This document shows, piece after piece, positions 1-10,750 of a DNA stretch of 51,671 nt. Position numbers and translations under genes: made by a program. Origin of the DNA: an uncultured Candidatus Saccharibacteria bacterium (GTDB lineage Bacteria > Patescibacteriota > WWE3 > UBA101185 > UBA10185). The notes beneath the pieces are model-generated. The model was not told the origin of the DNA. It ran no database searches and saw only the letters and a program-made list of their open reading frames with translations. Within the stretch, counting starts at the first letter, position 1. Every line of letters starts with the position of its first letter. The stretch is from NCBI GenBank assembly GCA_964385105.1, contig CAYLMU010000002.1, positions 1-51,671 on the forward strand, in the 5' to 3' direction.

Positions 1-3000
1 GATCAATTGCATTTAATGTAATTTGTTGATTACTTAATGTTAAGTAATCATATGCACCAGCAAGTGTTACAGCATCGTGAGTTGCACTTCCAATAGCCGC
101 GTCAAGGTCATTTAATACAGCTTGCACATTCAAACTGTTTGAATTATCAAATTCGTCAAACACACCAATTAAATATGCACCAGATGTTGTTGCACTTGCA
201 CTATCGCCAATACCAATATTGCCAACCATTAAATTACTACCTCTAATAGTTCCGTTAACATCAAGCTTGTGAGCAGGTGCAGTATTACCAATGCCAACAC
301 GACCATTTGTGCCGTCAAGGTAGAGGATTTCGGTAGCTAAATTAGAATTAAAGTATCTGAATGACTCAGATGCGCTGCCGCTATACAAATTAATTGACGT
401 GCTTTCATCCAATGTCATAGTATCTACAAAATGTTCCCAGTCAAGCGAGTCATCAGTTACGTCATTTGCAACCACATTTCCCCAGGTAAGGTTTCCGGCA
501 GTATCACTTGTCAAAACTTGTCCGGCAGAAGCTGCATTGGCAATAGGCCAGTTATATGCAACATTGTTTATTTTTGTAAGGTTTCCGCTTGAATTTACCT
601 GAAATTGCCCTGATGCCCCAACTGTTAACAATGAAGTTGCATTTGTTGTTCCTATGCCAACATTTGTTCCGTCATTAAACAAGTTCGTGTCAGTTACCCA
701 ATCATTACCGTCATATCTAAGTGTCTGCCCATCAATAGTTCCAAGAGGTAAGTTTCCTGCGCTAACGGTGTTCAAAACAGTATCGATCTCTTTTAATGCG
801 CCCTGTAAGTTTAGTGAAGTGATGTTGGTAAAGTTATCATTATAAAGTCCAACCAAATATGAACCTGAGTTAGTGGTTCCTGCCGACGTTCCAATGCCAA
901 TATTTCCAATTAATAAATCACTGCCTCTTATGGTGCCGTTAACATCCAAAGTGTAAGAAGGGGCAGATGTTCCTATTCCGAGTCTTCCGGAAGCATTGTT
1001 CCACGAAAGTAGAGAAGAATTTTGAGTAAAGTTTGTGCCATTTCCAAATACAATTCCGCCACTAACCACACTAGAATTATCCAAGTAATTTAATTCTGCG
1101 GCTGTAGCTGTTACACCGTCGAGGATGTTTAGTTCTGATGCGTCAGCTGTTACCTGTGATCCGGCTAAATATAACTGATTAGTACCAAATGACCCTGCAA
1201 CGTGTAAATTATACGAAGGAGCAGTTGTACCTATGCCAAGTCTACCTAAACTGTTATCCCAGAAAAAGTTGTTTGACCCTGTAAGTGTGTCAGAATCTGA
1301 AAAGAATGACACTTGTCCTGGTATTATAGTTCCGGTTGTATTAACTGCACCTGCACTTGATATGTCAACCCATGTTAAATTGCCTGCAGTGTCACTAGCT
1401 AATACATAATTTGAACCTGCGGCATTAGTATTTGGCCAGCTGTATGGTACATTATTAATTCTTGTTAGATTGCCTGTTGAGTTAACTCTAAACTGACTTG
1501 ATGCTCCTACTGAAAATGCTGCTTGAGGGTTTGTGTTACCTATACCGACGTTTGATCCACTTTGAAAGAGATTTGAATTTGCAATGCTTGATGATGAATC
1601 AAAGTATGGAAGATATCCTGTTGTACCTGTGTAGCTTAAATCATCACTTGCGTTTGTGTCGTAGGCAGATATGTCAAATGTTCCTGCAACTTGAAGTCTA
1701 CCTGCACTGTCTACACCAAAGTAGGGGATAGCGGTTGCACTGCCATAAGTACCTGCTGATACTGTTGTATTAGCCAGAGTTAATACACCTGTATTTGAAA
1801 GTGTTGCATCACCACTTAAACTCATAAATGTTGGTGCTGATGATGAGTTAATCACAAGTAACTGACCACCTGTACCATTAATTAAACTCACAGGTCCTGT
1901 ACCTGCACCAATCATAAGTGAATTTGCAGTAATTGAACTCAAACCTGTGCCTCCATTTGATACCGGAAGTGTGCCGGTTACGTCGGTGGCCAAATCAATA
2001 GCATTTAATGTAATCTCTTGACCATTTAAGGTTAAATAATCAAATGCCCCTGCCAATGTTACTGCAGCGTGTGTGCCGCCTACAATATTAGAAAGTTGTA
2101 TGTCAAAGTCATCCAAAACATCTTGAACGTTTAGTGAGTTTGAATAAGTAAATTCATCAAATACACCAATTAAATATGCACCTGATGTTGTTGGGGTAGC
2201 ACTATCTCCAATGCCAATGTTTCCGATTCTAATGTTACTTCCTCTAATGGTGCCGTTAACGTCTAATGCAAAACCAGGAGCCGTAGTTCCAATTCCCACA
2301 TTTCCGTTTACATACAATTTAGCTGTACCTGAGTTCTGTGCACCAATTGAGACATTATATGAAACATCATCGGGGTATAAGTTATTGCCATTAAGTGTCC
2401 ATGGTCCAGCACTTCCTGAAATATCTGCCCAACTTGCATTGCCTGAAGCATCGCTTGTTAAAACATATCCTGCTTGTGCATTGGTAGGCATTCTAAATGC
2501 TGTAGTATTTAATGTTCCGTTAATATCAACATCATAAGCTGGATTTGTAGTTCCAAAACCAATGTTATAGTTATTAAATGACGCGGTATTGGTGTCGGTA
2601 TCTATCTGAAATAAGATTGTGCCTCCGTCTTGAATAGTAAGCGCATTAGATAAACTTGTAGGTAAATCAAAGACAATTGTAGAAGAACTTGCACCACCTG
2701 CACCTATTATCAATTCATCACTGTTGGTGACCTCGATTATATTTGTGTTACCGTTGTCATATCTTAAGCCAAAATTACCTGCTCCTAAATTGATAAATAC
2801 GTCATTATCCCAACCATTTACACCGTCTCCGGTACCTAATATTGTGTTATCTCTAACAGTAAGGTTGTCATTAGATAAAGAACCTGCATCCACTGTTATT
2901 GTATGTGCAAATACATTTCCTTGGGCATCTACATAAAAGTTACTATCTCCGGGATTGTCTTTGTTTGTCGTAATGCCAAACACAATGTTATTTTGTGGTT

Positions 3001-4588
3001 GCGCCGATGCATCATAATAAATTAATGAATCTGATACAATTGACCCTATTGTATTGCTACCTAATAAAAGTTTGTTAAACAATGTCAAAGTGTTTGAAGC
3101 TGATGTGTTGCTACCAATGACTACATCGTCAGTAGCCCTTAATGTGCCGTTTATATCAAGCTTATATTGAGGTGCAGTTGTACCAATTCCGATACGTCCT
3201 GTAATTTCATCTAAAAACAATATTTCATCGTTATTGTCATTGAAAATATGTAAATTACCGTGTGCAGCACTGAGTTCTATCGTGTTTCCGCTTTCATACG
3301 CATCCTGTAAAGATATAGCTGTACCGGATATATTCACCCAACCACTCCCATCAAAAACATATACTCTGTTATCAGATGTATTATATGCAATAAACCCCTC
3401 ACCCGAACTTAAATTTGTAAAGCTATTTGATTGGGGTAATCTCAGCCCTTGTAAAGTGGATGAATTGTGTGCAATAGCTCCTAAATCAAGAAAAGTATTG
3501 TTATTAAATGACAAAGTTCCCGATGTAAATGCATCGGATGTGTCAGACCTTAAGAATTGTGTAGAATCCAGGTCATCAAGTAATCCTGCACTAAGGTCTT
3601 GAGGGCTAAGCCACACAGGTGTGTTTCCGCCAGTGGAAGTTAATATATCACCGTTATTTCCTGTTTCACCTCCGAATATTAAAGTACCTTCTATGTTAAA
3701 CGTACCTGTATAATCAATTTCATTTGCTAATTGAGTATTATTTAAGCCTGTACTTATGATATCACCTGCCAAATCCAACGCTTCTTCTAATGTAGTTTCA
3801 GTAACGTCGTCAATACCTAATAGTTGATTCATTGTTCCTACACCGGTAAAAGTTAAAGAATTTGTATTAATACCTGCTAAAAATGACGCCAGTCCGCTTA
3901 CAGTAAGAGTGTCGTCTAATGTCACAGCACTTTGGAATGTGGCTTCATCGCTAAACATTGTTCTAATGTTTATTAAAAACTCAAATTCGGCATTTTCATC
4001 TCTTCTTCCTAACACATTCCCAAAAAAGCTATTTGCGGAAGCTTGTGTAGCCGTTTTGTCATCATACGTCATGTCATTAGCCACACTCCCATTACCCGTA
4101 AATTTTCCTGCAATATCACCCAATTTATATGTGGGGGCAGTTCTGTATATTAAAACTGCTAAGCCAATTGCAAAGGTGGTACCTGCTGCTATTTTTGACC
4201 CCCTTGCTATTGGCTTAAGATACGATGCCATGTTTTTTGTAGATTTTACAGGTTGAGGTGTTGTTTTGGAAACCGCCGGCTTTACCGGGGCTACAGTTTT
4301 TTTTGTTTCGAGCAAGGTTGGTGCGGTAATTGGATCTGTATTTGGAAGCTTCTTTACTGTTTTTGCTTTGCTTTTTTCTTTTACTATTTCGTCTTTTAGC
4401 TTTAATACATCTTGTACATTAAAACTTCTGTATCCGTTGACTTGTCTAACAGATTTAATCTTTCCGTTCTGTTCAAGACGTCTTAAAGATGTAGGTGAAA
4501 TCTTCAGAATACGTGCCGCTTCTGAAACGTTTAAATAGAGAGTGTCATTTATTGAATTGTCATGTTTCTTTTTTTGGGCAGCAGGCAT
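1..4588 (-). CDS. Giant membrane-anchored surface/fibre-like protein (>1529 aa, 3' end outside window): N-terminal MerR/excisionase-type HTH, one TM segment, long Gly/Thr/Asn-rich repeat region
   Basis: Manual translation from ATG at 4588 gives MPAAQKKKHDNSINDTLYLNVSEAARILKISPTSLRRLEQNGKIKSVRQVNGYRSFNVQDVLKLK (HTH), then hydrophobic IAAGTTFAIGLAVLIY. At least 8 G[IF]GxxxP/A motifs follow (e.g. GIGTTAPQYKLDINGT). Same frame spot-checked at about 4.5 kb, 3.6 kb, 2.0 kb and the window edge; not every codon was translated. Absent from the ORF track, probably because it has no stop in the window. Confidence 0.85.
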   Translation of the reverse strand, partial: MPAAQKKKHDNSINDTLYLNVSEAARILKISPTSLRRLEQNGKIKSVRQVNGYRSFNVQDVLKLKDEIVKEKSKAKTVKKLPNTDPITAPTLLETKKTVAPVKPAVSKTTPQPVKSTKNMASYLKPIARGSKIAAGTTFAIGLAVLIYRTAPTYKLGDIAGKFTGNGSVANDMTYDDKTATQASANSFFGNVLGRRDENAEFEFLINIRTMFSDEATFQSAVTLDDTLTVSGLASFLAGINTNSLTFTGVGTMNQLLGIDDVTETTLEEALDLAGDIISTGLNNTQLANEIDYTGTFNIEGTLIFGGETGNNGDILTSTGGNTPVWLSPQDLSAGLLDDLDSTQFLRSDTSDAFTSGTLSFNNNTFLDLGAIAHNSSTLQGLRLPQSNSFTNLSSGEGFIAYNTSDNRVYVFDGSGWVNISGTAISLQDAYESGNTIELSAAHGNLHIFNDNNDEILFLDEITGRIGIGTTAPQYKLDINGTLRATDDVVIGSNTSASNTLTLFNKLLLGSNTIGSIVSDSLIYYDASAQPQNNIVFGITTNKDNPGDSNFYVDAQGNVFAHTITVDAGSLSNDNLTVRDNTILGTGDGVNGWDNDVFINLGAGNFGLRYDNGNTNIIEVTNSDELIIGAGGASSSTIVFDLPTSLSNALTIQDGGTILFQIDTDTNTASFNNYNIGFGTTNPAYDVDINGTLNTTAFRMPTNAQAGYVLTSDASGNASWADISGSAGPWTLNGNNLYPDDVSYNVSIGAQNSGTAKLYVNGNVGIGTTAPGFALDVNGTIRGSNIRIGNIGIGDSATPTTSGAYLIGVFDEFTYSNSLNVQDVLDDFDIQLSNIVGGTHAAVTLAGAFDYLTLNGQEITLNAIDLATDVTGTLPVSNGGTGLSSITANSLMIGAGTGPVSLINGTGGQLLVINSSSAPTFMSLSGDATLSNTGVLTLANTTVSAGTYGSATAIPYFGVDSAGRLQVAGTFDISAYDTNASDDLSYTGTTGYLPYFDSSSSIANSNLFQSGSNVGIGNTNPQAAFSVGASSQFRVNSTGNLTRINNVPYSWPNTNAAGSNYVLASDTAGNLTWVDISSAGAVNTTGTIIPGQVSFFSDSDTLTGSNNFFWDNSLGRLGIGTTAPSYNLHVAGSFGTNQLYLAGSQVTADASELNILDGVTATAAELNYLDNSSVVSGGIVFGNGTNFTQNSSLLSWNNASGRLGIGTSAPSYTLDVNGTIRGSDLLIGNIGIGTSAGTTNSGSYLVGLYNDNFTNITSLNLQGALKEIDTVLNTVSAGNLPLGTIDGQTLRYDGNDWVTDTNLFNDGTNVGIGTTNATSLLTVGASGQFQVNSSGNLTKINNVAYNWPIANAASAGQVLTSDTAGNLTWGNVVANDVTDDSLDWEHFVDTMTLDESTSINLYSGSASESFRYFNSNLATEILYLDGTNGRVGIGNTAPAHKLDVNGTIRGSNLMVGNIGIGDSASATTSGAYLIGVFDEFDNSNSLNVQAVLNDLDAAIGSATHDAVTLAGAYDYLTLSNQQITLNAID

Positions 4589-4816
4589 TTGATTTCTTTA
4601 TGTACTCAAAGCTTTTCAAATAGCTTTGTGATAACATTTAGTAACATTTATTTAATGATAATATGGTAATGCTGCATGTGTCAACCACTTAGTTTACCAA
4701 TTAGTGAAATGCTCGTATTTTTATACATTTTGTACAATGACAAGATGTGACGTCGTCTTTGTAAAAATGTAATTTGTCATAATCAGCATTTACTCCTATT
4801 ATAGGCAATAAGAGGA

Positions 4817-4845
4817 TTGACTACTTCGAACATTAAATGTACTCT
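4817..4845 (+). promoter_or_regulatory. Sigma70-type promoter for the F1-like operon, probably leaderless
   Basis: TTGACT(4817)-17 nt-TACTCT(4840); ATG lies 6 nt after the -10 box; no SD. Confidence 0.6.
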
Positions 4846-4851
4846 TAAAAC

Positions 4852-5643
4852 ATGGAACAACTGCCCAAAAACCATACAATTAAAATTTTTGTGTTGGTTT
4901 TGACTACTATAATTTTGTTTTTTTTGATTCACTTTCAATTTGTGGTCAATGCAATTTCAAGCGTAACGGTTATGTTTGATGTCACTGGTGACAATTTACA
5001 GTCGGGGGATATTGTAATTACTGTAGAGGGTAATTATTTAAAAAGCACGGAGGAATATTCAGGAAACTTATTAGGAGTAATAGTTGATGACCCTTCATTG
5101 GCGTTACGAGATACTACATTAGAAAATGGTACATATGTAACCACATCAGGTGAGGCTTTCGTAAACGTTTCTGCTGTAAATGGTGCAATTAATGCCGGAG
5201 ATTATATAACGACGTCAAATATTCCGGGAGTAGGCATGAAGTCTACCAAGTCAGGACAGGTGTTAGGTATAGCATTAGAAAGTTTTGAGCCGGCAGACAC
5301 AAATCAAATAGGACAAATATGGACATTTATTGATATTGGACCGGTTATTTCAGGCGACTCAATCGAACAGAATGCTTTAGAGCTTTTAAGATCGGGTATC
5401 AGTGCACCGTTTTTGACTCCTATGACTTCTTTAAGATTTCTCTTATCTTTTATAGTAATAATTGTATCTTTCTTTTTAGGTTTTGTATCATTTAGCAAAA
5501 TAACAGGCAATAGTATACAGGCCCTCGGCAGGAACCCTTTAGCTAGTAATGTCATAAAGTCATCAGTTGTCATGAATTTCTTTTTTACCATTATTGTAAT
5601 TATGGTCGGTGTAGGAGTAGCGTATTTAATTTTATCGGTATAA
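4852..5643 (+). CDS. Membrane protein: N-terminal TM/signal, soluble beta-rich domain, C-terminal two-TM hairpin resembling ATP synthase subunit c but without the ion-binding acid
   Basis: C-terminal LRFLLSFIVIIVSFFLGFVSFSKITGNSIQALGRNPLASNVIKSSVVMNFFFTIIVIMVGVGVAYLILSV. The loop ALGRNP resembles the subunit c A-x-x-R-[QN]-P loop; no D/E in the hairpin; first gene of the atp cluster. Confidence 0.7.
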   Translation: MEQLPKNHTIKIFVLVLTTIILFFLIHFQFVVNAISSVTVMFDVTGDNLQSGDIVITVEGNYLKSTEEYSGNLLGVIVDDPSLALRDTTLENGTYVTTSGEAFVNVSAVNGAINAGDYITTSNIPGVGMKSTKSGQVLGIALESFEPADTNQIGQIWTFIDIGPVISGDSIEQNALELLRSGISAPFLTPMTSLRFLLSFIVIIVSFFLGFVSFSKITGNSIQALGRNPLASNVIKSSVVMNFFFTIIVIMVGVGVAYLILSV

Positions 5644-5646
5644 AAA

Positions 5647-6354
5647 ATGACCAATTTTGATTTTAATTCAATATATATATTATTACTTAATATTTTCTTT
5701 GTCATACTATTTCTTATTTTAATTTTTTATATATTTAACACATACTTAGTACAACGTGAGGAGGAACGTAAACAAATACAAGATAAGGCATACAAGAAGG
5801 CTTTGAAAATTTTAGAAGATTCACAAGCACAAGCCTTAAGTACTATCAAAGCTTCTAATGTAAAAGCCCAAGAAATTATTAAAAATACACATGCGCTCAC
5901 AAGCGAAACTAAAGATGAGTTACACGCAAAAATAGAGGAAGAGACCAACAGACAAATAAAGGAAATTGAAAAAAGCACACATGATATGTATATGACATAC
6001 CATGCCGCCTTGCAAAAAGAGTCAGCAAGAAATTTGGGTACACTTCATAAAATGTTAAAAGATGTGGAGTCCGAAGTAGTTAATGAATTAAACGAATTCA
6101 AGAATATAGTAAAAGAAGAAACTATAAATTCAGAAAAAACAGTTCAAGAAAGGATTAATAAAGATTACGAAGATTTGCGTGCTGAGCTTGATAACTATAG
6201 AGATGAAAAATATCAAGAAATTGATAAAAACATCAACACTATTTTATTTAATGTAAGTAAATCAGTGCTTGGGGTTGCCATTGATCTTGAAATACATCAG
6301 CAACTTGTTCTTGAAAGTTTGGAAAAAGCTAAAAAGGAAGCTTTATTTGAATAA
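5647..6354 (+). CDS. F-type ATPase subunit b-like peripheral stalk (divergent)
   Basis: One N-terminal TM helix followed by a long E/K-rich coiled coil; directly upstream of delta/alpha. Confidence 0.65.
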   Translation: MTNFDFNSIYILLLNIFFVILFLILIFYIFNTYLVQREEERKQIQDKAYKKALKILEDSQAQALSTIKASNVKAQEIIKNTHALTSETKDELHAKIEEETNRQIKEIEKSTHDMYMTYHAALQKESARNLGTLHKMLKDVESEVVNELNEFKNIVKEETINSEKTVQERINKDYEDLRAELDNYRDEKYQEIDKNINTILFNVSKSVLGVAIDLEIHQQLVLESLEKAKKEALFE

Positions 6355-6818
6355 TGAAAATGAAGAGGCATCTAATAAGTACCAAAACAGAGCTTGAGAA
6401 TTTCGTGGCAAATTTGGAGAAGTTAACACTCGACATTAAAGGTATTCAATCTGAAAAACTCGAATCATATCTGGTAAAAAACTATGACAGTGAATTTATT
6501 GCTCGAGTCTCTGTAAGTTTACCAAACGGTTTAAATAAAGCAAATACTAACCTTGTGACTGATGTTGAAGAATTATTTAAGTCAACAAAAGATACCTTAG
6601 AAAATTCACTACAGGTTAAGCTAACTTTAGCATTTATCCCGGATGAAAAATTTATAAAAAGTTTGTATGAGTGGTTTGAGCAGAATACTGAGATAGAAGT
6701 GTTATTAGATATTGACACAGACAGGAGTATTATAGCCGGAGCAATCGTTAGCAGTGACGGAAAATATATGGATGATTCTGCAAGGAGTAAATTAAACAAA
6801 TATGGCAGATTTATTTAG
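6354..6818 (+). CDS. atpH: F-type ATPase subunit delta-like (divergent)
   Basis: C-terminal IDTDRSIIAGAIVSSDGKYMDDSARSKL matches the delta/OSCP C-terminal pattern; between b-like and alpha. Confidence 0.65.
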   Translation: MKMKRHLISTKTELENFVANLEKLTLDIKGIQSEKLESYLVKNYDSEFIARVSVSLPNGLNKANTNLVTDVEELFKSTKDTLENSLQVKLTLAFIPDEKFIKSLYEWFEQNTEIEVLLDIDTDRSIIAGAIVSSDGKYMDDSARSKLNKYGRFI

Positions 6819-8262
6819 CAATTATTTAGAAAATACTAATGAAATCGGGTATGTAGAATCTACGTCAATGCCTTTAGTATACATAAAAGGTTTACCCGGA
6901 ATTAAACCCAAAGAAAAAGTGGTTTTTGAAAAAGATTATGTCGGTCAAGTACTCTCCATAAGTGAAGAAGTTGTTGAAGTTATAGTTTTCACAAAAGATG
7001 TCATAACAGTGGGAACCAAAGTAGTGCGTACAGACAAAAAAATTGAGATACCAATTGGCGACTCATTAATAGGAATGGTTTTAGATCCATTTGGAAGGTC
7101 TGTTTACAAATCTCAACCTCGTAGCTTTACTGATGCGCAATTATATGAAATAGATTCACCGGCACTTGGAATTGATAAGAGAAAGAATATAAAAGTTCCA
7201 TTTTTAACAGGAGTGACAATAGTTGATTTAATGATTCCACTTGGAAAAGGTCAAAGAGAAATAGTAATTGGCGATAAGAAAACAGGTAAATCAGCATTTG
7301 TTTTACAAACTATATTAACCCAAGCCCGTCAGGGAACTATATGTATATATGCAGGTATAGGTAAAAAGAAACAAGAAATCAAAGAAGTTCATGAGTTCTT
7401 TTCATCAAATGGCATAACAGATAACACAATAATCATAGCAGCAGGTGCGGATGACCCACTGGGAGTTATTTATTTGACCCCCTATTCAGCAATGAGGGTG
7501 GCTGAGTATTATCGTGATAAAGGAAAAGATGTGTTAATTATACTTGATGATATGACAACACATGCAAAGTTTTACCGGGAGATTTCTTTGTTAGCTAACA
7601 GATTTCCCGGACGAGAGTCTTACCCCGCCGATATATTCTATATTCATTCTCATTTGCTTGAACGTGCAGGTTCTTTTGAACAGGGAACAATTACATGTTT
7701 ACCGGTTGTCAACACCATTGAGGGGGATTTGTCAGGATATATTCAAACTAATCTTATGTCAATGACTGACGGACATTTATTTTTTGATAAAGAGTTGTTT
7801 TATGGAGGCCAGCGTCCTGCGGTGAATTATTTTTATTCCGTAACTAGAGTAGGCAGACAAACCCAGTCAGGTTTGCGTTGGACAATTAACAGGGAATTAA
7901 GCAGTTTCTTTACATTATTTAAAAAGACGGAAAATTTTGTTCATTTTGGAGCAGAAATTAATGAGGGTATAAAATCCACTTTAGCTTTGGGTGAAAAATT
8001 GAATTATTTAATGAGTCAAAAACCCGGTACAAGTATTGAACTCAATTTACAAATCTTTTTATTTTCTTTAATGTGGAGTGGTATATGGAATGATTTAAAA
8101 GGTCAGGATTTCATATCAATTGTACAAAAAGTAATGAAAAATTATGAAGAAAAACCTGAATTTAGAGATGAAATCAGGTTACTAATTGAGAGTTCCAATG
8201 ATTTTAATCAGTTGTTAGCAAGTCTTATGAAAAATCTTAATAAGTTTCAACAGTACATGTAA
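6802..8262 (+). CDS. atpA: F1 ATPase subunit alpha
   Basis: GVTIVDLMIPLGKGQREIVIGDKKTGKS, RFPGRESYPADIFYIHSHLLERAG, YIQTNLMSMTDG, SVTRVG. Confidence 0.95.
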   Translation: MADLFSNYLENTNEIGYVESTSMPLVYIKGLPGIKPKEKVVFEKDYVGQVLSISEEVVEVIVFTKDVITVGTKVVRTDKKIEIPIGDSLIGMVLDPFGRSVYKSQPRSFTDAQLYEIDSPALGIDKRKNIKVPFLTGVTIVDLMIPLGKGQREIVIGDKKTGKSAFVLQTILTQARQGTICIYAGIGKKKQEIKEVHEFFSSNGITDNTIIIAAGADDPLGVIYLTPYSAMRVAEYYRDKGKDVLIILDDMTTHAKFYREISLLANRFPGRESYPADIFYIHSHLLERAGSFEQGTITCLPVVNTIEGDLSGYIQTNLMSMTDGHLFFDKELFYGGQRPAVNYFYSVTRVGRQTQSGLRWTINRELSSFFTLFKKTENFVHFGAEINEGIKSTLALGEKLNYLMSQKPGTSIELNLQIFLFSLMWSGIWNDLKGQDFISIVQKVMKNYEEKPEFRDEIRLLIESSNDFNQLLASLMKNLNKFQQYM

Positions 8263-8271
8263 AGATAAAAT

Positions 8272-10493
<2,222 letters not shown>

Positions 10494-10519
10494 CAATTTA
10501 TGAAATATATTATCATATT

Positions 10520-10750
10520 ATGAGAATTGTGATATTAAGTAAAGAAAAAGTATTATATGACGGTTATGTAAAAACTGTGACATCGCATAATGATGTAGGA
10601 ACATTTGATATACTAGAAAATCATGCCAATTTCATAACAATGCTCAAAGATGAAGTTTTGCTTGACAAAGGTACTCAAAAGGAGAAAAGATTTGACGTAA
10701 AAGAAGGTGTTTTATCAGTTGCAGACGATCGGGTAGAAATATTTCTGTGA
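10520..10750 (+). CDS. atpC: F1 ATPase subunit epsilon, N-terminal beta-sandwich only (76 aa)
   Basis: GTFDILENHANFITML resembles the epsilon GxxGILxxHxxxIT motif; last gene of cluster. Confidence 0.85.
   Translation: MRIVILSKEKVLYDGYVKTVTSHNDVGTFDILENHANFITMLKDEVLLDKGTQKEKRFDVKEGVLSVADDRVEIFL

What the first reader, a model, noticed from the sequence alone, without database searches (positions are those of the whole stretch)
4852..5400. Soluble domain fused to the c-like hairpin resembles the C-terminal module of giant fibre-like proteins
Seen: the domain contains GEAFVNVSAVNGAINAGDYITTSNIPGVGMKSTKSGQVLGIALE. From pattern recognition only, G-D-x-I-T-[TS]-S-x-x-P-G-x-G-M-K-x-T-x-x-G-x-x-x-G-x-A-L-E recalls the module at the C-terminus of very large CPR surface proteins and tail-fibre-like proteins. 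Inference: the rotor subunit may carry a copy of the fibre's terminal domain, acting as docking site or template for the neighbouring giant protein, whose C-terminus lies outside this window.
Basis: inference. Interest (0 to 1): 0.7.

Follow-up and report, generated by a model that had tools for sequence, protein, structure and literature searches.

The report
Phage-fibre chaperone domain on ATPase rotor
The outward-facing part of this tiny bacterium's ATP-synthase ring subunit is a true relative of the self-cleaving folding module found near the end of giant surface fibres and phage tail fibres, which hints that this proton-blind motor works on such fibres, though physical contact between the two is unproven.

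Summary
Observation confirmed; interpretation partly supported.

ORF 4852-5643 (263 aa) consists of a signal peptide, a ~140-aa beta domain and an ATP-synthase-c-like hairpin. The hairpin has an invariant GRNP loop but no membrane carboxylate (0 of 120 homologues).

The beta domain is homologous to a module that lies 190-530 aa before the C-terminus of giant, MerR-HTH-headed CPR surface proteins:
- hhalign gives probability 99.9% and E 7e-34.
- The window domain alone reaches 42% identity by BLASTP.

That module is the phage phi29 gp12-type autochaperone (PDB 3GQH/3SUC, Pfam Peptidase_G2). In the giants it starts with the self-cleavage motif D-x-A-E. The rotor copy has lost that motif.

A MerR-headed gene sits head-to-head with the fusion gene in 53 of 57 informative metagenome loci. 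Three results argue against a simple "copy of the neighbour":
- Only about half of the complete neighbours carry the module.
- The rotor domains form one old clade.
- Same-locus pairs are no more similar than cross-locus pairs.

Docking or templating therefore remains an inference (about 0.4). This genome's own giant C-terminus and its subunit-a status could not be checked, because the genome tools were shut. The published literature holds only a 2013 remark on the odd WWE3/OP11 c subunit.

The parts
4852..4953 (+). N-terminal signal peptide or anchor (aa 1-34; hydrophobic core IFVLVLTTIILFFLIHF, then VNA|IS)
   Evidence: Sequence; AF2 helix 8-27. Homologues share a hydrophobic N-terminus ending in A-x-A/AQ-like sites. 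Cleavage is inferred, not tested.
4954..5367 (+). Extracytoplasmic beta domain (aa 35-172). It is a non-cleaving relative of the phi29 gp12-type (Peptidase_G2) autochaperone and phage cement fold.
   Evidence: AF2 pLDDT 96-98. Foldseek to PDB cement proteins and to BFVD pre-neck appendage and tail proteins. hhalign to giant modules 99.9%. Pfam XM1_gp53 hit in 37 of 120 members.
5149..5280 (+). The quoted conserved core motif (aa 100-143): G..V.VS..NG.I..GD.IT.S..PG.G.K....G...G.ALE
   Evidence: Invariant columns. Shared with giant modules.
4960..4971 (+). S-V-T-V (aa 37-40). This position aligns with the D-x-A-E self-cleavage motif of the giants' module and of phi29 gp12, so the motif is lost here.
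   Evidence: hhalign alignments; multiple alignment A5; gp12 alignment at S691|D692-F-A-E695.
5368..5418 (+). Linker with a short amphipathic helix (aa 173-189)
   Evidence: AF2 helix 175-184, lower pLDDT of 69-84.
5419..5640 (+). ATP-synthase-c-like two-helix hairpin (aa 190-263) with an invariant cytoplasmic G226-R-N-P229 loop and no Asp/Glu in helix 2
   Evidence: PDB hmmsearch to c subunits, E 0.003. Foldseek 9itt_I TM 0.89, rmsd 1.2. Column counts: 0 of 120 D/E at positions 237-263.
2..4588 (-). Divergent giant surface protein (first 1,529 aa only): MerR-type HTH (aa 18-65), one membrane segment, then GIGTTxP-type repeats. The C-terminus lies outside the window.
   Evidence: Relatives found next to c-fusions in other loci.
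4589..4851 (.). Shared 263-bp control region with back-to-back promoter-like sites
   Evidence: Minus strand TTGACA-18-TATCAT (4684..4655); plus strand TTGTCA-17-TATTAT (4774..4802). These are consensus matches only and are not above shuffles.
5647..10750 (+). b-like (235 aa), delta (154), alpha (486), gamma (284), beta (455) and epsilon (76) genes, tightly packed behind the c-fusion gene. There is no a-subunit gene.
   Evidence: Catalytic motifs are intact: beta [24 protein letters not shown]; alpha GDKKTGKS, SVTRVG.

Best explanation
Shown: the protein is a three-part fusion.
1. A Sec-type signal peptide.
2. A ~140-aa beta domain. It is a diverged, non-cleaving paralogue of the phi29 gp12-type intramolecular-chaperone module (Peptidase_G2; the same fold as phage capsid cement proteins).
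3. An F-type c-subunit hairpin that keeps the F1-binding R-N-P loop but lacks the ion-binding carboxylate.

Because c-subunit N-termini face outward, the beta domains should form a crown on the outer face of the ring. The ring sits under an apparently catalytically competent F1.

The cleavable version of the same module starts with D-x-A-E, as at the gp12 cleavage site. It sits near the C-terminus of giant, membrane-anchored, MerR-HTH-headed fibre-like proteins. One such gene lies head-to-head with the fusion gene in about 93% of loci.

Inferred: modules of this fold act by self-association, either trimerising and templating fibres or cementing capsids. The crown therefore most likely serves as a fixed binding or assembly platform for module-bearing surface fibres, whether encoded by the neighbour or elsewhere. 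That would couple the fibres to an ATP-driven, ion-blind rotor.
For: Architecture and fold:
- AF2 model with pLDDT 91.
- The hairpin matches c subunits.
- The domain matches cement proteins and phage pre-neck-appendage or tail proteins.

Homology to the giants:
- The c-fusion domain profile hits 16 of 19 MerR-headed giants at E 1e-13 to 1e-33.
- hhalign gives 99.8-99.9%.
- Single-sequence BLASTP reaches 1.4e-20.

Identity of the module:
- The giant-module profile hits phi29 gp12 3GQH/6QZ9 exactly at S691|DFAEYFES.
- It also hits a 'chaperon domain D4' of a tailspike.
- Pfam Peptidase_G2 scores 32 bits on the L026 giant.
- The AF2 model of a giant module has 3SUC and 3GQH as best PDB matches, followed by the same cement proteins that the rotor domain hits.
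- D-x-A-E is present in 272 of 295 modules and absent from the c-fusions.

Genomic linkage:
- 53 of 57 informative metagenome loci have a divergent MerR-headed ORF within 1.5 kb. The same holds in L001, L004, L006, L008, L025, L026, L028 and L029.
- The pair stays together when a phosphoglycerate-mutase gene separates the fusion from the rest of the operon (L026).
- It also stays together when no ATPase genes are nearby (L027).

The rotor cannot carry ions in the usual way: no D/E in helix 2 in 120 of 120 members. F1 motifs are intact.
Against: - Only 6-7 of 12 neighbours that are complete in their locus carry the module. The constant partner is the HTH-plus-membrane head, not the module.
- There is no excess similarity between rotor domain and module of the same locus.
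- The rotor domains are one ancient clade, so nothing points to ongoing matching of partners.
- If the giants' module is shed after self-cleavage, as in phi29, a lasting dock through it is unlikely.
- The module is extremely common: 25,467 clusters at 50% identity. Recruitment from a large pool needs no specific partner.
- No interaction, expression or structural data exist, and no RNA runs were found.
- The ring assembly and the absence of subunit a in this genome were not verifiable here.
Confidence: 0.4

Rival explanations
1. Independent use of a common building block. The beta domain was taken once from the very large CPR pool of this module. It now acts on its own, for example as a self-associating collar that stabilises a glycine-poor c-ring, or as an anchor to the cell envelope. 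In this reading the near-universal head-to-head pairing with the MerR-headed gene reflects regulation or contact through the giant's cytoplasmic HTH or membrane helix, not through the shared module. Classical MerR regulators are transcribed divergently from their targets.
For: - The constant feature of the neighbour is the MerR HTH head. Extracellular parts range from 405 aa to more than 5,000 aa, and half of them lack the module.
- The rotor domains are monophyletic and old.
- There is no same-locus covariation.
- The module family is huge.
- Relatives of this fold act as self-associating capsid cement.
- Helix 1 lacks the GxGxGxG packing motif.
Against: - The HTH is only the roughly 40-60-aa DNA-binding head, without the MerR dimerisation and effector parts.
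- The promoter spacers are 17-18 bp, not the 19-20 bp typical of MerR targets.
- In L027 the fusion lies beside two fibre-like proteins, one carrying the module, with no ATPase genes in the fetched 20.8-kb locus. That points to a fibre link rather than operon regulation.
Confidence: 0.33
2. Transient trans-chaperone or template. The crown never holds the mature fibre. It nucleates trimerisation and folding of newly exported giant proteins by pairing with their cleavable modules, and it releases them after self-cleavage. F1-driven rotation would provide turnover.
For: - The gp12-type module is an assembly chaperone that is cut off after folding (established for phi29 gp12; alignment to its cleavage site).
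- The rotor copy lacks the cleavage motif, so it would persist.
- Both domains are on the outer side of the membrane, according to the signal peptide and the single-pass topology.
Against: - The giants already carry their own module in cis, often in two tandem copies, so a trans copy seems unnecessary.
- Half of the neighbours have none.
- No data exist on interaction.
Confidence: 0.15
3. An ordinary ion-coupled ATP synthase in disguise. A diverged subunit a would be encoded elsewhere. The ring would bind ions through conserved polar residues (N242, T246), and the beta domain would be a passive decoration.
For: - The whole genome could not be searched for subunit a.
- N242 (113 of 120) and T246 (96 of 120) are conserved polar residues in helix 2.
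- F1, b, delta and epsilon look orthodox.
Against: - No known rotary ATPase works without a membrane carboxylate (established knowledge), and 0 of 120 members have one.
- No a gene lies in the operon in any locus examined.
- Kantor et al. [quoted passage not shown]
Confidence: 0.08
4. Chance or compositional resemblance with no homology.
For: Pfam on the window protein alone gives only E 0.12. PHROGs, NCBIfam and phage tblastn found nothing.
Against: hhalign gives 99.9% with E 7e-34. BLASTP reaches 1e-20. Both AF2 models share the same fold neighbours. The motif occurs 0 times in shuffles.
Confidence: 0.01

Closest known systems
Bacteriophage phi29 pre-neck appendage protein gp12, C-terminal autochaperone domain (PDB 3GQH, 3GQK, 3SUC, 6QZ9; Pfam PF11962 Peptidase_G2; MEROPS G2)
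   Same: Same beta fold and detectable sequence relationship. The link runs through the giants' modules, which align to gp12 at its cleavage site S691|D692-F-A-E695. BFVD's best structural matches to the rotor domain are 'preneck appendage' or tail proteins.
   Different: The rotor copy lacks the D-x-A-E cleavage motif. It follows a signal peptide rather than a fibre shaft. It is fused to a membrane hairpin and is encoded in an ATPase operon of a bacterium, not in a phage.
Phage capsid cement and decoration proteins (Pam3 gp6 8HDT_G, Borrelia BB1 8PKH, XM1 gp53 7KMX/PF23982, TW1 5WK1_K, Phage_cement_2 PF09956, phi29 head-fibre base 6QYY)
   Same: Same fold. Foldseek E 6e-5 to 1e-1. Pfam XM1_gp53 hits in 37 of 120 family members, best 7.7e-6. 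These are small self-associating surface modules.
   Different: Cement proteins are free proteins of about 120-170 aa that bind capsid lattices. Here the domain is membrane-tethered on a c-like hairpin in a cell.
F-type ATP synthase subunit c (AtpE, PF00137)
   Same: Two-helix hairpin (TM-score 0.89 to Chloroflexus c). Conserved R-N-P loop. Gene placed directly before b-delta-alpha-gamma-beta-epsilon.
   Different: No carboxylate in helix 2 (0 of 120). No GxGxGxG motif. It carries a 170-aa exported N-terminal extension. No subunit-a gene is in the operon.
Giant MerR-HTH-headed, tail-fibre-like surface proteins of CPR bacteria (e.g. P0122, 4,651 aa; P0134, 3,014 aa)
   Same: They carry the same module at 30-42% identity and are encoded head-to-head with the fusion gene.
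   Different: In the giants the module keeps D-x-A-E. It is followed by a coiled coil and a K1-lyase_C-like end domain, and it is often duplicated.
Mycoplasma F1-like 'X0' ATPases, including the M. mobile gliding motor (from established knowledge; PMC7052211 appeared in search but was not read)
   Same: F1-type ATPase genes without a proton path, thought to do mechanical or surface-related work and encoded with surface proteins.
   Different: Those clusters lack c-like, b and delta subunits and use diverged alpha/beta paralogues. Here F1 and the stalks look orthodox, and a c-derived ring subunit is kept.

Membership tests
Peptidase_G2 / phi29 gp12-type autochaperone module | Homologous beta-domain fold | tested here: met
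   - hhalign of c-fusions against giant modules gives 99.9%.
- Giant modules match 3GQH/6QZ9/3SUC by sequence and by fold.
- BFVD top hits are 'preneck appendage' proteins.
- Direct PF11962 hits occur in only 3 of 120 c-fusions, best E 0.01, so the link is transitive.
Peptidase_G2 / phi29 gp12-type autochaperone module | Self-cleavage motif D-x-A-E at the module's N-terminal edge (gp12 S691|D692...E695) | tested here: not met
   The window has S-V-T-V at the aligned positions, and the family consensus is G-x-A-x-S. The giants have the motif in 272 of 295 modules.
Peptidase_G2 / phi29 gp12-type autochaperone module | Located C-terminal to a trimeric fibre or beta-helix shaft | tested here: not met
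   The domain follows the signal peptide directly and precedes a membrane hairpin.
Peptidase_G2 / phi29 gp12-type autochaperone module | Autoproteolytic release after assembly | not testable with these tools
   Needs biochemistry.
Phage cement / decoration proteins (PF23982, PF09956, PF22758) | Fold and profile similarity | tested here: met
   Foldseek 8hdt_G at 6e-5, plus 8pkh, 7kmx and 5wk1. PF23982 hits 37 of 120 members, best 7.7e-6. The window protein itself scores E 0.12, below the gathering cut-off.
Phage cement / decoration proteins (PF23982, PF09956, PF22758) | Free small protein of a phage head module | tested here: not met
   The domain is fused to a c-like hairpin in a housekeeping region of a bacterial genome. 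There is no phage match by tblastn or PHROGs.
F-type ATP synthase subunit c (PF00137) | Two-helix hairpin with cytoplasmic R-[QN]-P loop | tested here: met
   GRNP is invariant in 120 of 120 members. PDB hmmsearch E 0.003. Foldseek TM 0.89, rmsd 1.2.
F-type ATP synthase subunit c (PF00137) | Ion-binding Asp/Glu in the middle of helix 2 | tested here: not met
   0 of 120 members have D/E at positions 237-263. The aligned position is I/F/V/L.
F-type ATP synthase subunit c (PF00137) | Gly-rich GxGxGxG packing motif in helix 1 | tested here: not met
   The consensus is SFxxGFxxFG, with only G210 and G215 conserved.
F-type ATP synthase subunit c (PF00137) | Gene directly upstream of atpF in an F1Fo operon | tested here: met
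   Seen in the window (3-nt gap to the b gene) and in most loci. Exceptions are L026 and L027.
F-type ATP synthase subunit c (PF00137) | Works against a subunit a encoded in the genome | tested here: inconclusive
   No a-like gene is in the operon or among the window ORFs scanned. The whole-genome search tools were shut.

The most novel reading that the evidence does not exclude
The 'ATP synthase' of WWE3/Microgenomates-type CPR bacteria would be a new kind of surface motor. F1 turns an ion-blind c-ring whose outer crown of non-cleaving autochaperone domains captures the homologous, cleavable module of giant fibres. Those fibres are anchored at their other end by a MerR-HTH membrane head. ATP hydrolysis would then assemble, hold, twist or reel in surface fibres used to attach to hosts.
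Probability: 0.15. Interest if true: 0.95.

Novelty: new variant of a known kind. Interest (0 to 1): 0.78.

Why it matters
Rotary ATPases are defined by coupling between an ion path and a carboxylate-bearing ring. Here the ring subunit has no carboxylate and no partner a gene nearby. It also displays a phage-fibre assembly domain on the cell surface. The arrangement is conserved across hundreds of CPR lineages and almost always sits next to a giant fibre-like gene.

If the shared module mediates contact, this would be the first case of an F-type motor transmitting work to an extracellular appendage. It would also change how the energy metabolism of a large part of the CPR is read, since these operons are currently counted as ATP synthases or as incomplete.

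Even under the conservative reading, the result names the unknown domain and gives concrete, cheap tests: binding, self-cleavage and co-folding.

Tried and rejected
Tools that were unavailable or found nothing:
- The genome search (PF00137 and PF00119 in the own genome) was shut. Genome-wide absence of a and c subunits and the giant's own C-terminus are therefore untested.
- The look-up of encoding contigs does not hold the window's own protein.
- The single genome-contig scan, run with the giant's last 500 visible residues, found only relatives of up to 59% identity, not the source genome.
- tblastn of the domain against 50,697 phage genomes gave no match. PHROGs and NCBIfam gave nothing. Pfam on the window protein alone gave only E 0.12.
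- No RNA runs hold the gene, so there is no expression evidence.
- Literature searches found no description of the fused domain. They turned up only Kantor 2013's remark, and ProAD's rule that a genome counts as encoding a functional rotary ATPase only if the essential subunits, including a and c, are found.

Ideas tested and rejected:
- A recent copy of the neighbour, or gene conversion. Rejected because the c-fusion domains are monophyletic and same-locus BLAST scores do not exceed cross-locus scores.
- A MerR-type operator in the 263-bp spacer. The region holds only ordinary 17-18-bp-spacer promoter-like sites, not above shuffles, plus two short palindromes. This is inconclusive.
- The module sits at the extreme C-terminus. 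Rejected: 186-526 aa follow it, consisting of a coiled coil plus a K1-lyase_C-like end domain.

Full report
**What is there.** ORF 4852..5643 (+) encodes 263 aa. It is the first gene of a tightly packed cluster: b-like (5647-6354), delta (6354-6818), alpha (6802-8262), gamma (8272-9126), beta (9126-10493) and epsilon (10520-10750). The gene is divergent from a giant ORF (2..4588, minus strand) of which 1,529 aa are visible. That ORF starts with a MerR-type HTH.

AlphaFold2, run with a 120-sequence alignment, gives a confident model (mean pLDDT 91). It has four parts:
- an N-terminal helix (aa 8-27), read as the hydrophobic core of a signal peptide and followed by VNA|IS;
- an all-beta domain (aa ~38-165, pLDDT 96-98);
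- a short amphipathic helix;
- two long helices (aa 190-227 and 229-262).

**The hairpin.**
- A family profile hits ATP synthase c subunits in the PDB (E 0.003).
- The model superposes on Chloroflexus, Bacillus PS3 and chloroplast c subunits (TM up to 0.89, rmsd 1.2-1.7 Å).
- The loop G-R-N-P is invariant in 120 of 120 homologues.
- The residue aligned with the ion-binding Glu is I/F/V/L, and no member has any Asp or Glu in helix 2.
- Helix 1 reads SFxxGFxxFG instead of GxGxGxG.
- The catalytic motifs of beta and alpha are intact.
- No a-subunit gene is in the operon or among the window ORFs scanned. The whole genome could not be searched because the genome tools were shut.
- Kantor et al. 2013 (PMC3812714) noted that the putative c subunit of WWE3 and OP11 operons lacks homology to known ones. 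I found no paper describing its extra domain.

**The soluble domain: is the resemblance real?** Yes.
- Pfam on single family members gives XM1_gp53 minor capsid protein (37 of 120, best 7.7e-6), Phage_cement_2 (9), Phage_cement (3) and Peptidase_G2 (3).
- Foldseek against the PDB finds capsid cement and decoration proteins: Pam3 8HDT_G at 6e-5, Borrelia BB1, the phi29 head-fibre base, TW1 and XM1.
- Against predicted viral structures, the best matches are long phage proteins named pre-neck appendage, tail, or tail-fibre-like. They score E 1e-10 to 1e-8 with rmsd about 2.5 Å over 130 residues.

I then fetched MerR-headed giants related to the neighbour of a distant c-fusion locus. A profile of the c-fusion soluble domain hit 16 of 19 of them at E 1e-13 to 1e-33. 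The hits were always 186-526 aa before the C-terminus. Two of the three misses are records marked partial.

Further support:
- Profile-profile comparison gives 99.8% (E 9e-28) and 99.9% (E 7e-34) over about 125 columns at 30% identity.
- The window domain alone hits 163 of 168 large proteins by BLASTP, up to 41.6% identity and E 1.4e-20.

**What the module is.**
- A profile of four giant modules, scored against 1.84 billion representatives, found 25,467 clusters at E<=1e-3 and 17,858 at E<=1e-10.
- The best 150 are long proteins (median 1,682 aa, up to 5,766).
- 145 of the 149 representatives analysed carry two tandem copies, and a median of 259 aa follows the last copy.
- All those that have names come from CPR lineages: Woesebacteria, Curtissbacteria, Uhrbacteria, Magasanikbacteria and Patescibacteria.
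- 272 of 295 modules begin with D-x-A-E.
- A 38-sequence module profile hits phi29 gp12 in the PDB: 3GQH_A at 2.2e-4 and full-length 6QZ9 aligned at residues 691-742, reading S-D-F-A-E-Y-F-E-S. The crystallised C-terminal fragment starts exactly at that Asp. The same profile also hits a tailspike 'chaperon domain D4'.
- Pfam calls Peptidase_G2 on the L026 giant (32 bits, above the cut-off). It finds a phage depolymerase beta-sandwich before the module (L025) and a K1-lyase_C-like domain at the very end in both L025 and L026.
- An AF2 model of a giant's module (pLDDT 94) has the same order of strands as the rotor domain. Its best PDB matches are 3SUC and 3GQH, followed by the same cement proteins that the rotor domain hits.

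The shared module is therefore the gp12-type intramolecular chaperone.

**The rotor copy differs in one decisive respect.** At the positions of D-x-A-E it has S-V-T-V, and the family consensus is G-x-A-x-S. It is preceded by a signal peptide, not a fibre shaft. It should therefore not self-cleave, and it should stay tethered to the membrane.

**Genomic linkage.** The head-to-head pairing holds well beyond this window.
- It is seen in the 67%-identical relative L001.
- It is seen in L004/L005 at 42% identity, with a giant of 3,894 aa.
- It is seen in L006 and L008.
- It is seen in L025, with a giant of 4,651 aa carrying the module at 4221-4345.
- It is seen in L026, with a giant of 3,014 aa carrying the module. 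There a phosphoglycerate-mutase gene is inserted between the fusion and the b gene, yet the giant stays next to the fusion.
- It is seen in L028 and L029.
- In L027 the fusion has no ATPase genes in the fetched locus, but it lies beside a MerR-headed 1,836-aa protein and a protein of at least 1,302 aa carrying the module.
- A scan of metagenome contigs gave 80 more loci. Of 57 with at least 1 kb upstream, 53 have a divergent MerR-HTH-headed ORF starting within 1.5 kb, and one more has it further away.

**Limits of the docking idea.**
- Among neighbours that are complete within their locus, only 4 of 10 metagenome cases carry the module in the same ORF, and one more has it in the next ORF.
- Five have the HTH head but no module or any known C-terminal domain. 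They range from 405 to 1,936 aa.
- Counting L025 and L026, 6-7 of 12 complete neighbours carry the module. The invariant partner is therefore the HTH-plus-membrane head, not the module.
- In a tree of 177 domains, the rotor domains form one clade (support 1.0) outside all fibre modules. This indicates a single old capture.
- Rotor-to-module BLAST scores within a locus (48, 41 and 54 bits) are no higher than across loci (34-54 bits).
- If the giants' module is shed after cleavage, as in phi29, a permanent dock through it is unlikely. A transient, assembly-stage contact would fit better.

**Most likely mechanism.** Three points are shown:
- a non-cleaving gp12-type module on a carboxylate-free c-like hairpin;
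- an orthodox F1 and stalks;
- near-obligate pairing with a MerR-headed surface-protein gene.

Three points are inferred:
- The ring displays a crown of these domains outside the membrane. This follows from c-subunit topology, which is established knowledge.
- Because this fold works by self-association, the crown binds or nucleates module-bearing fibres.
- F1 then supplies ATP-driven motion or turnover.

I put about 0.4 on a binding or assembly-platform role. I put 0.33 on an independent collar or anchor role, with the pairing explained by regulation or by contact through the HTH/membrane head. I put 0.15 on a purely transient chaperone role, and 0.08 on a disguised ordinary synthase.

**Context and earlier notes.** The window comes from an activated-sludge metagenome. 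Earlier notes of this scan describe the same system in at least 11 other genomes. One of them, e1-861295, reached the same domain assignment. I treated these as leads and re-derived each point here. They are not independent evidence.

Noticed in passing
L026:7203-8894 (minus strand): A 563-aa phosphoglycerate mutase (iPGM) gene is inserted between the c-fusion gene and the b-like gene. The MerR-headed giant stays adjacent to the c-fusion, not to the rest of the ATPase operon.
   Followed up: partly
L027:10001-20780: A c-fusion gene (35% identical) has no ATPase genes in the fetched 20.8-kb locus. It lies beside a MerR-headed 1,836-aa protein (Peptidase_S74) and a protein of at least 1,302 aa with a Phage_int_SAM-like N-terminus plus the G2-type module.
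   Followed up: partly
L030:7902-14410: In a Roizmanbacteria-type locus, the c-fusion, b, delta, alpha and gamma genes are followed by a Peptidase_S8 gene instead of beta and epsilon. The upstream neighbour is a collagen-like 935-aa protein without an HTH.
   Followed up: no
L025:23943-31808 and L026:19017-26528: The giants are followed by a second large protein (1,836 and 1,541 aa) rich in Laminin_G_3 domains. After that come a Wzy_C/TPR membrane protein (L025) and an unannotated 257-aa protein followed by a TPR protein (L026). This looks like a conserved surface-structure gene block.
   Followed up: no
L016, L017, L019, L021 and L020:15551-16063: A second, more distant variant of the module (NAFTGSHYAWT ... 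GDYLISSDVAGHAMKD ... ARAAE) occurs near the C-terminus of other giant proteins. It scores only 1e-4 to 1e-6 with the rotor-domain profile.
   Followed up: partly
C-termini of P0122, P0124, P0126, P0131, P0134, P0136: Many of the giants end in a conserved beta-rich tail (...SLIFVTP...LYV...F.V...veFNWWIV). In the two checked by Pfam it hits K1-lyase_C. A coiled coil precedes it, so the C-terminal region overall resembles a phage tailspike or depolymerase.
   Followed up: partly
window:10520-10750 and 6354-6818: Epsilon is only 76 aa, consisting of the beta-sandwich without the C-terminal regulatory helices. Delta (154 aa) matches only the C-terminal half of the OSCP profile.
   Followed up: no
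PDB 9flp_A: The module profile gives a weak hit (E 0.15) to the 5,898-aa grappling-hook protein GhpA of the predatory bacterium Aureispira. This may hint that contact-dependent predators use related modules.
   Followed up: no
L009, L010, L017, L019, L022: Contigs binned as Gammaproteobacteria or Pseudomonadales carry close relatives (up to 60-68% identity in segments) of this CPR giant fibre protein. The likely causes are misbinning or transfer.
   Followed up: no
window:22099-35194: Six ORFs of 184-333 aa in this stretch have no Pfam match at all, in contrast with the housekeeping genes on both sides.
   Followed up: no
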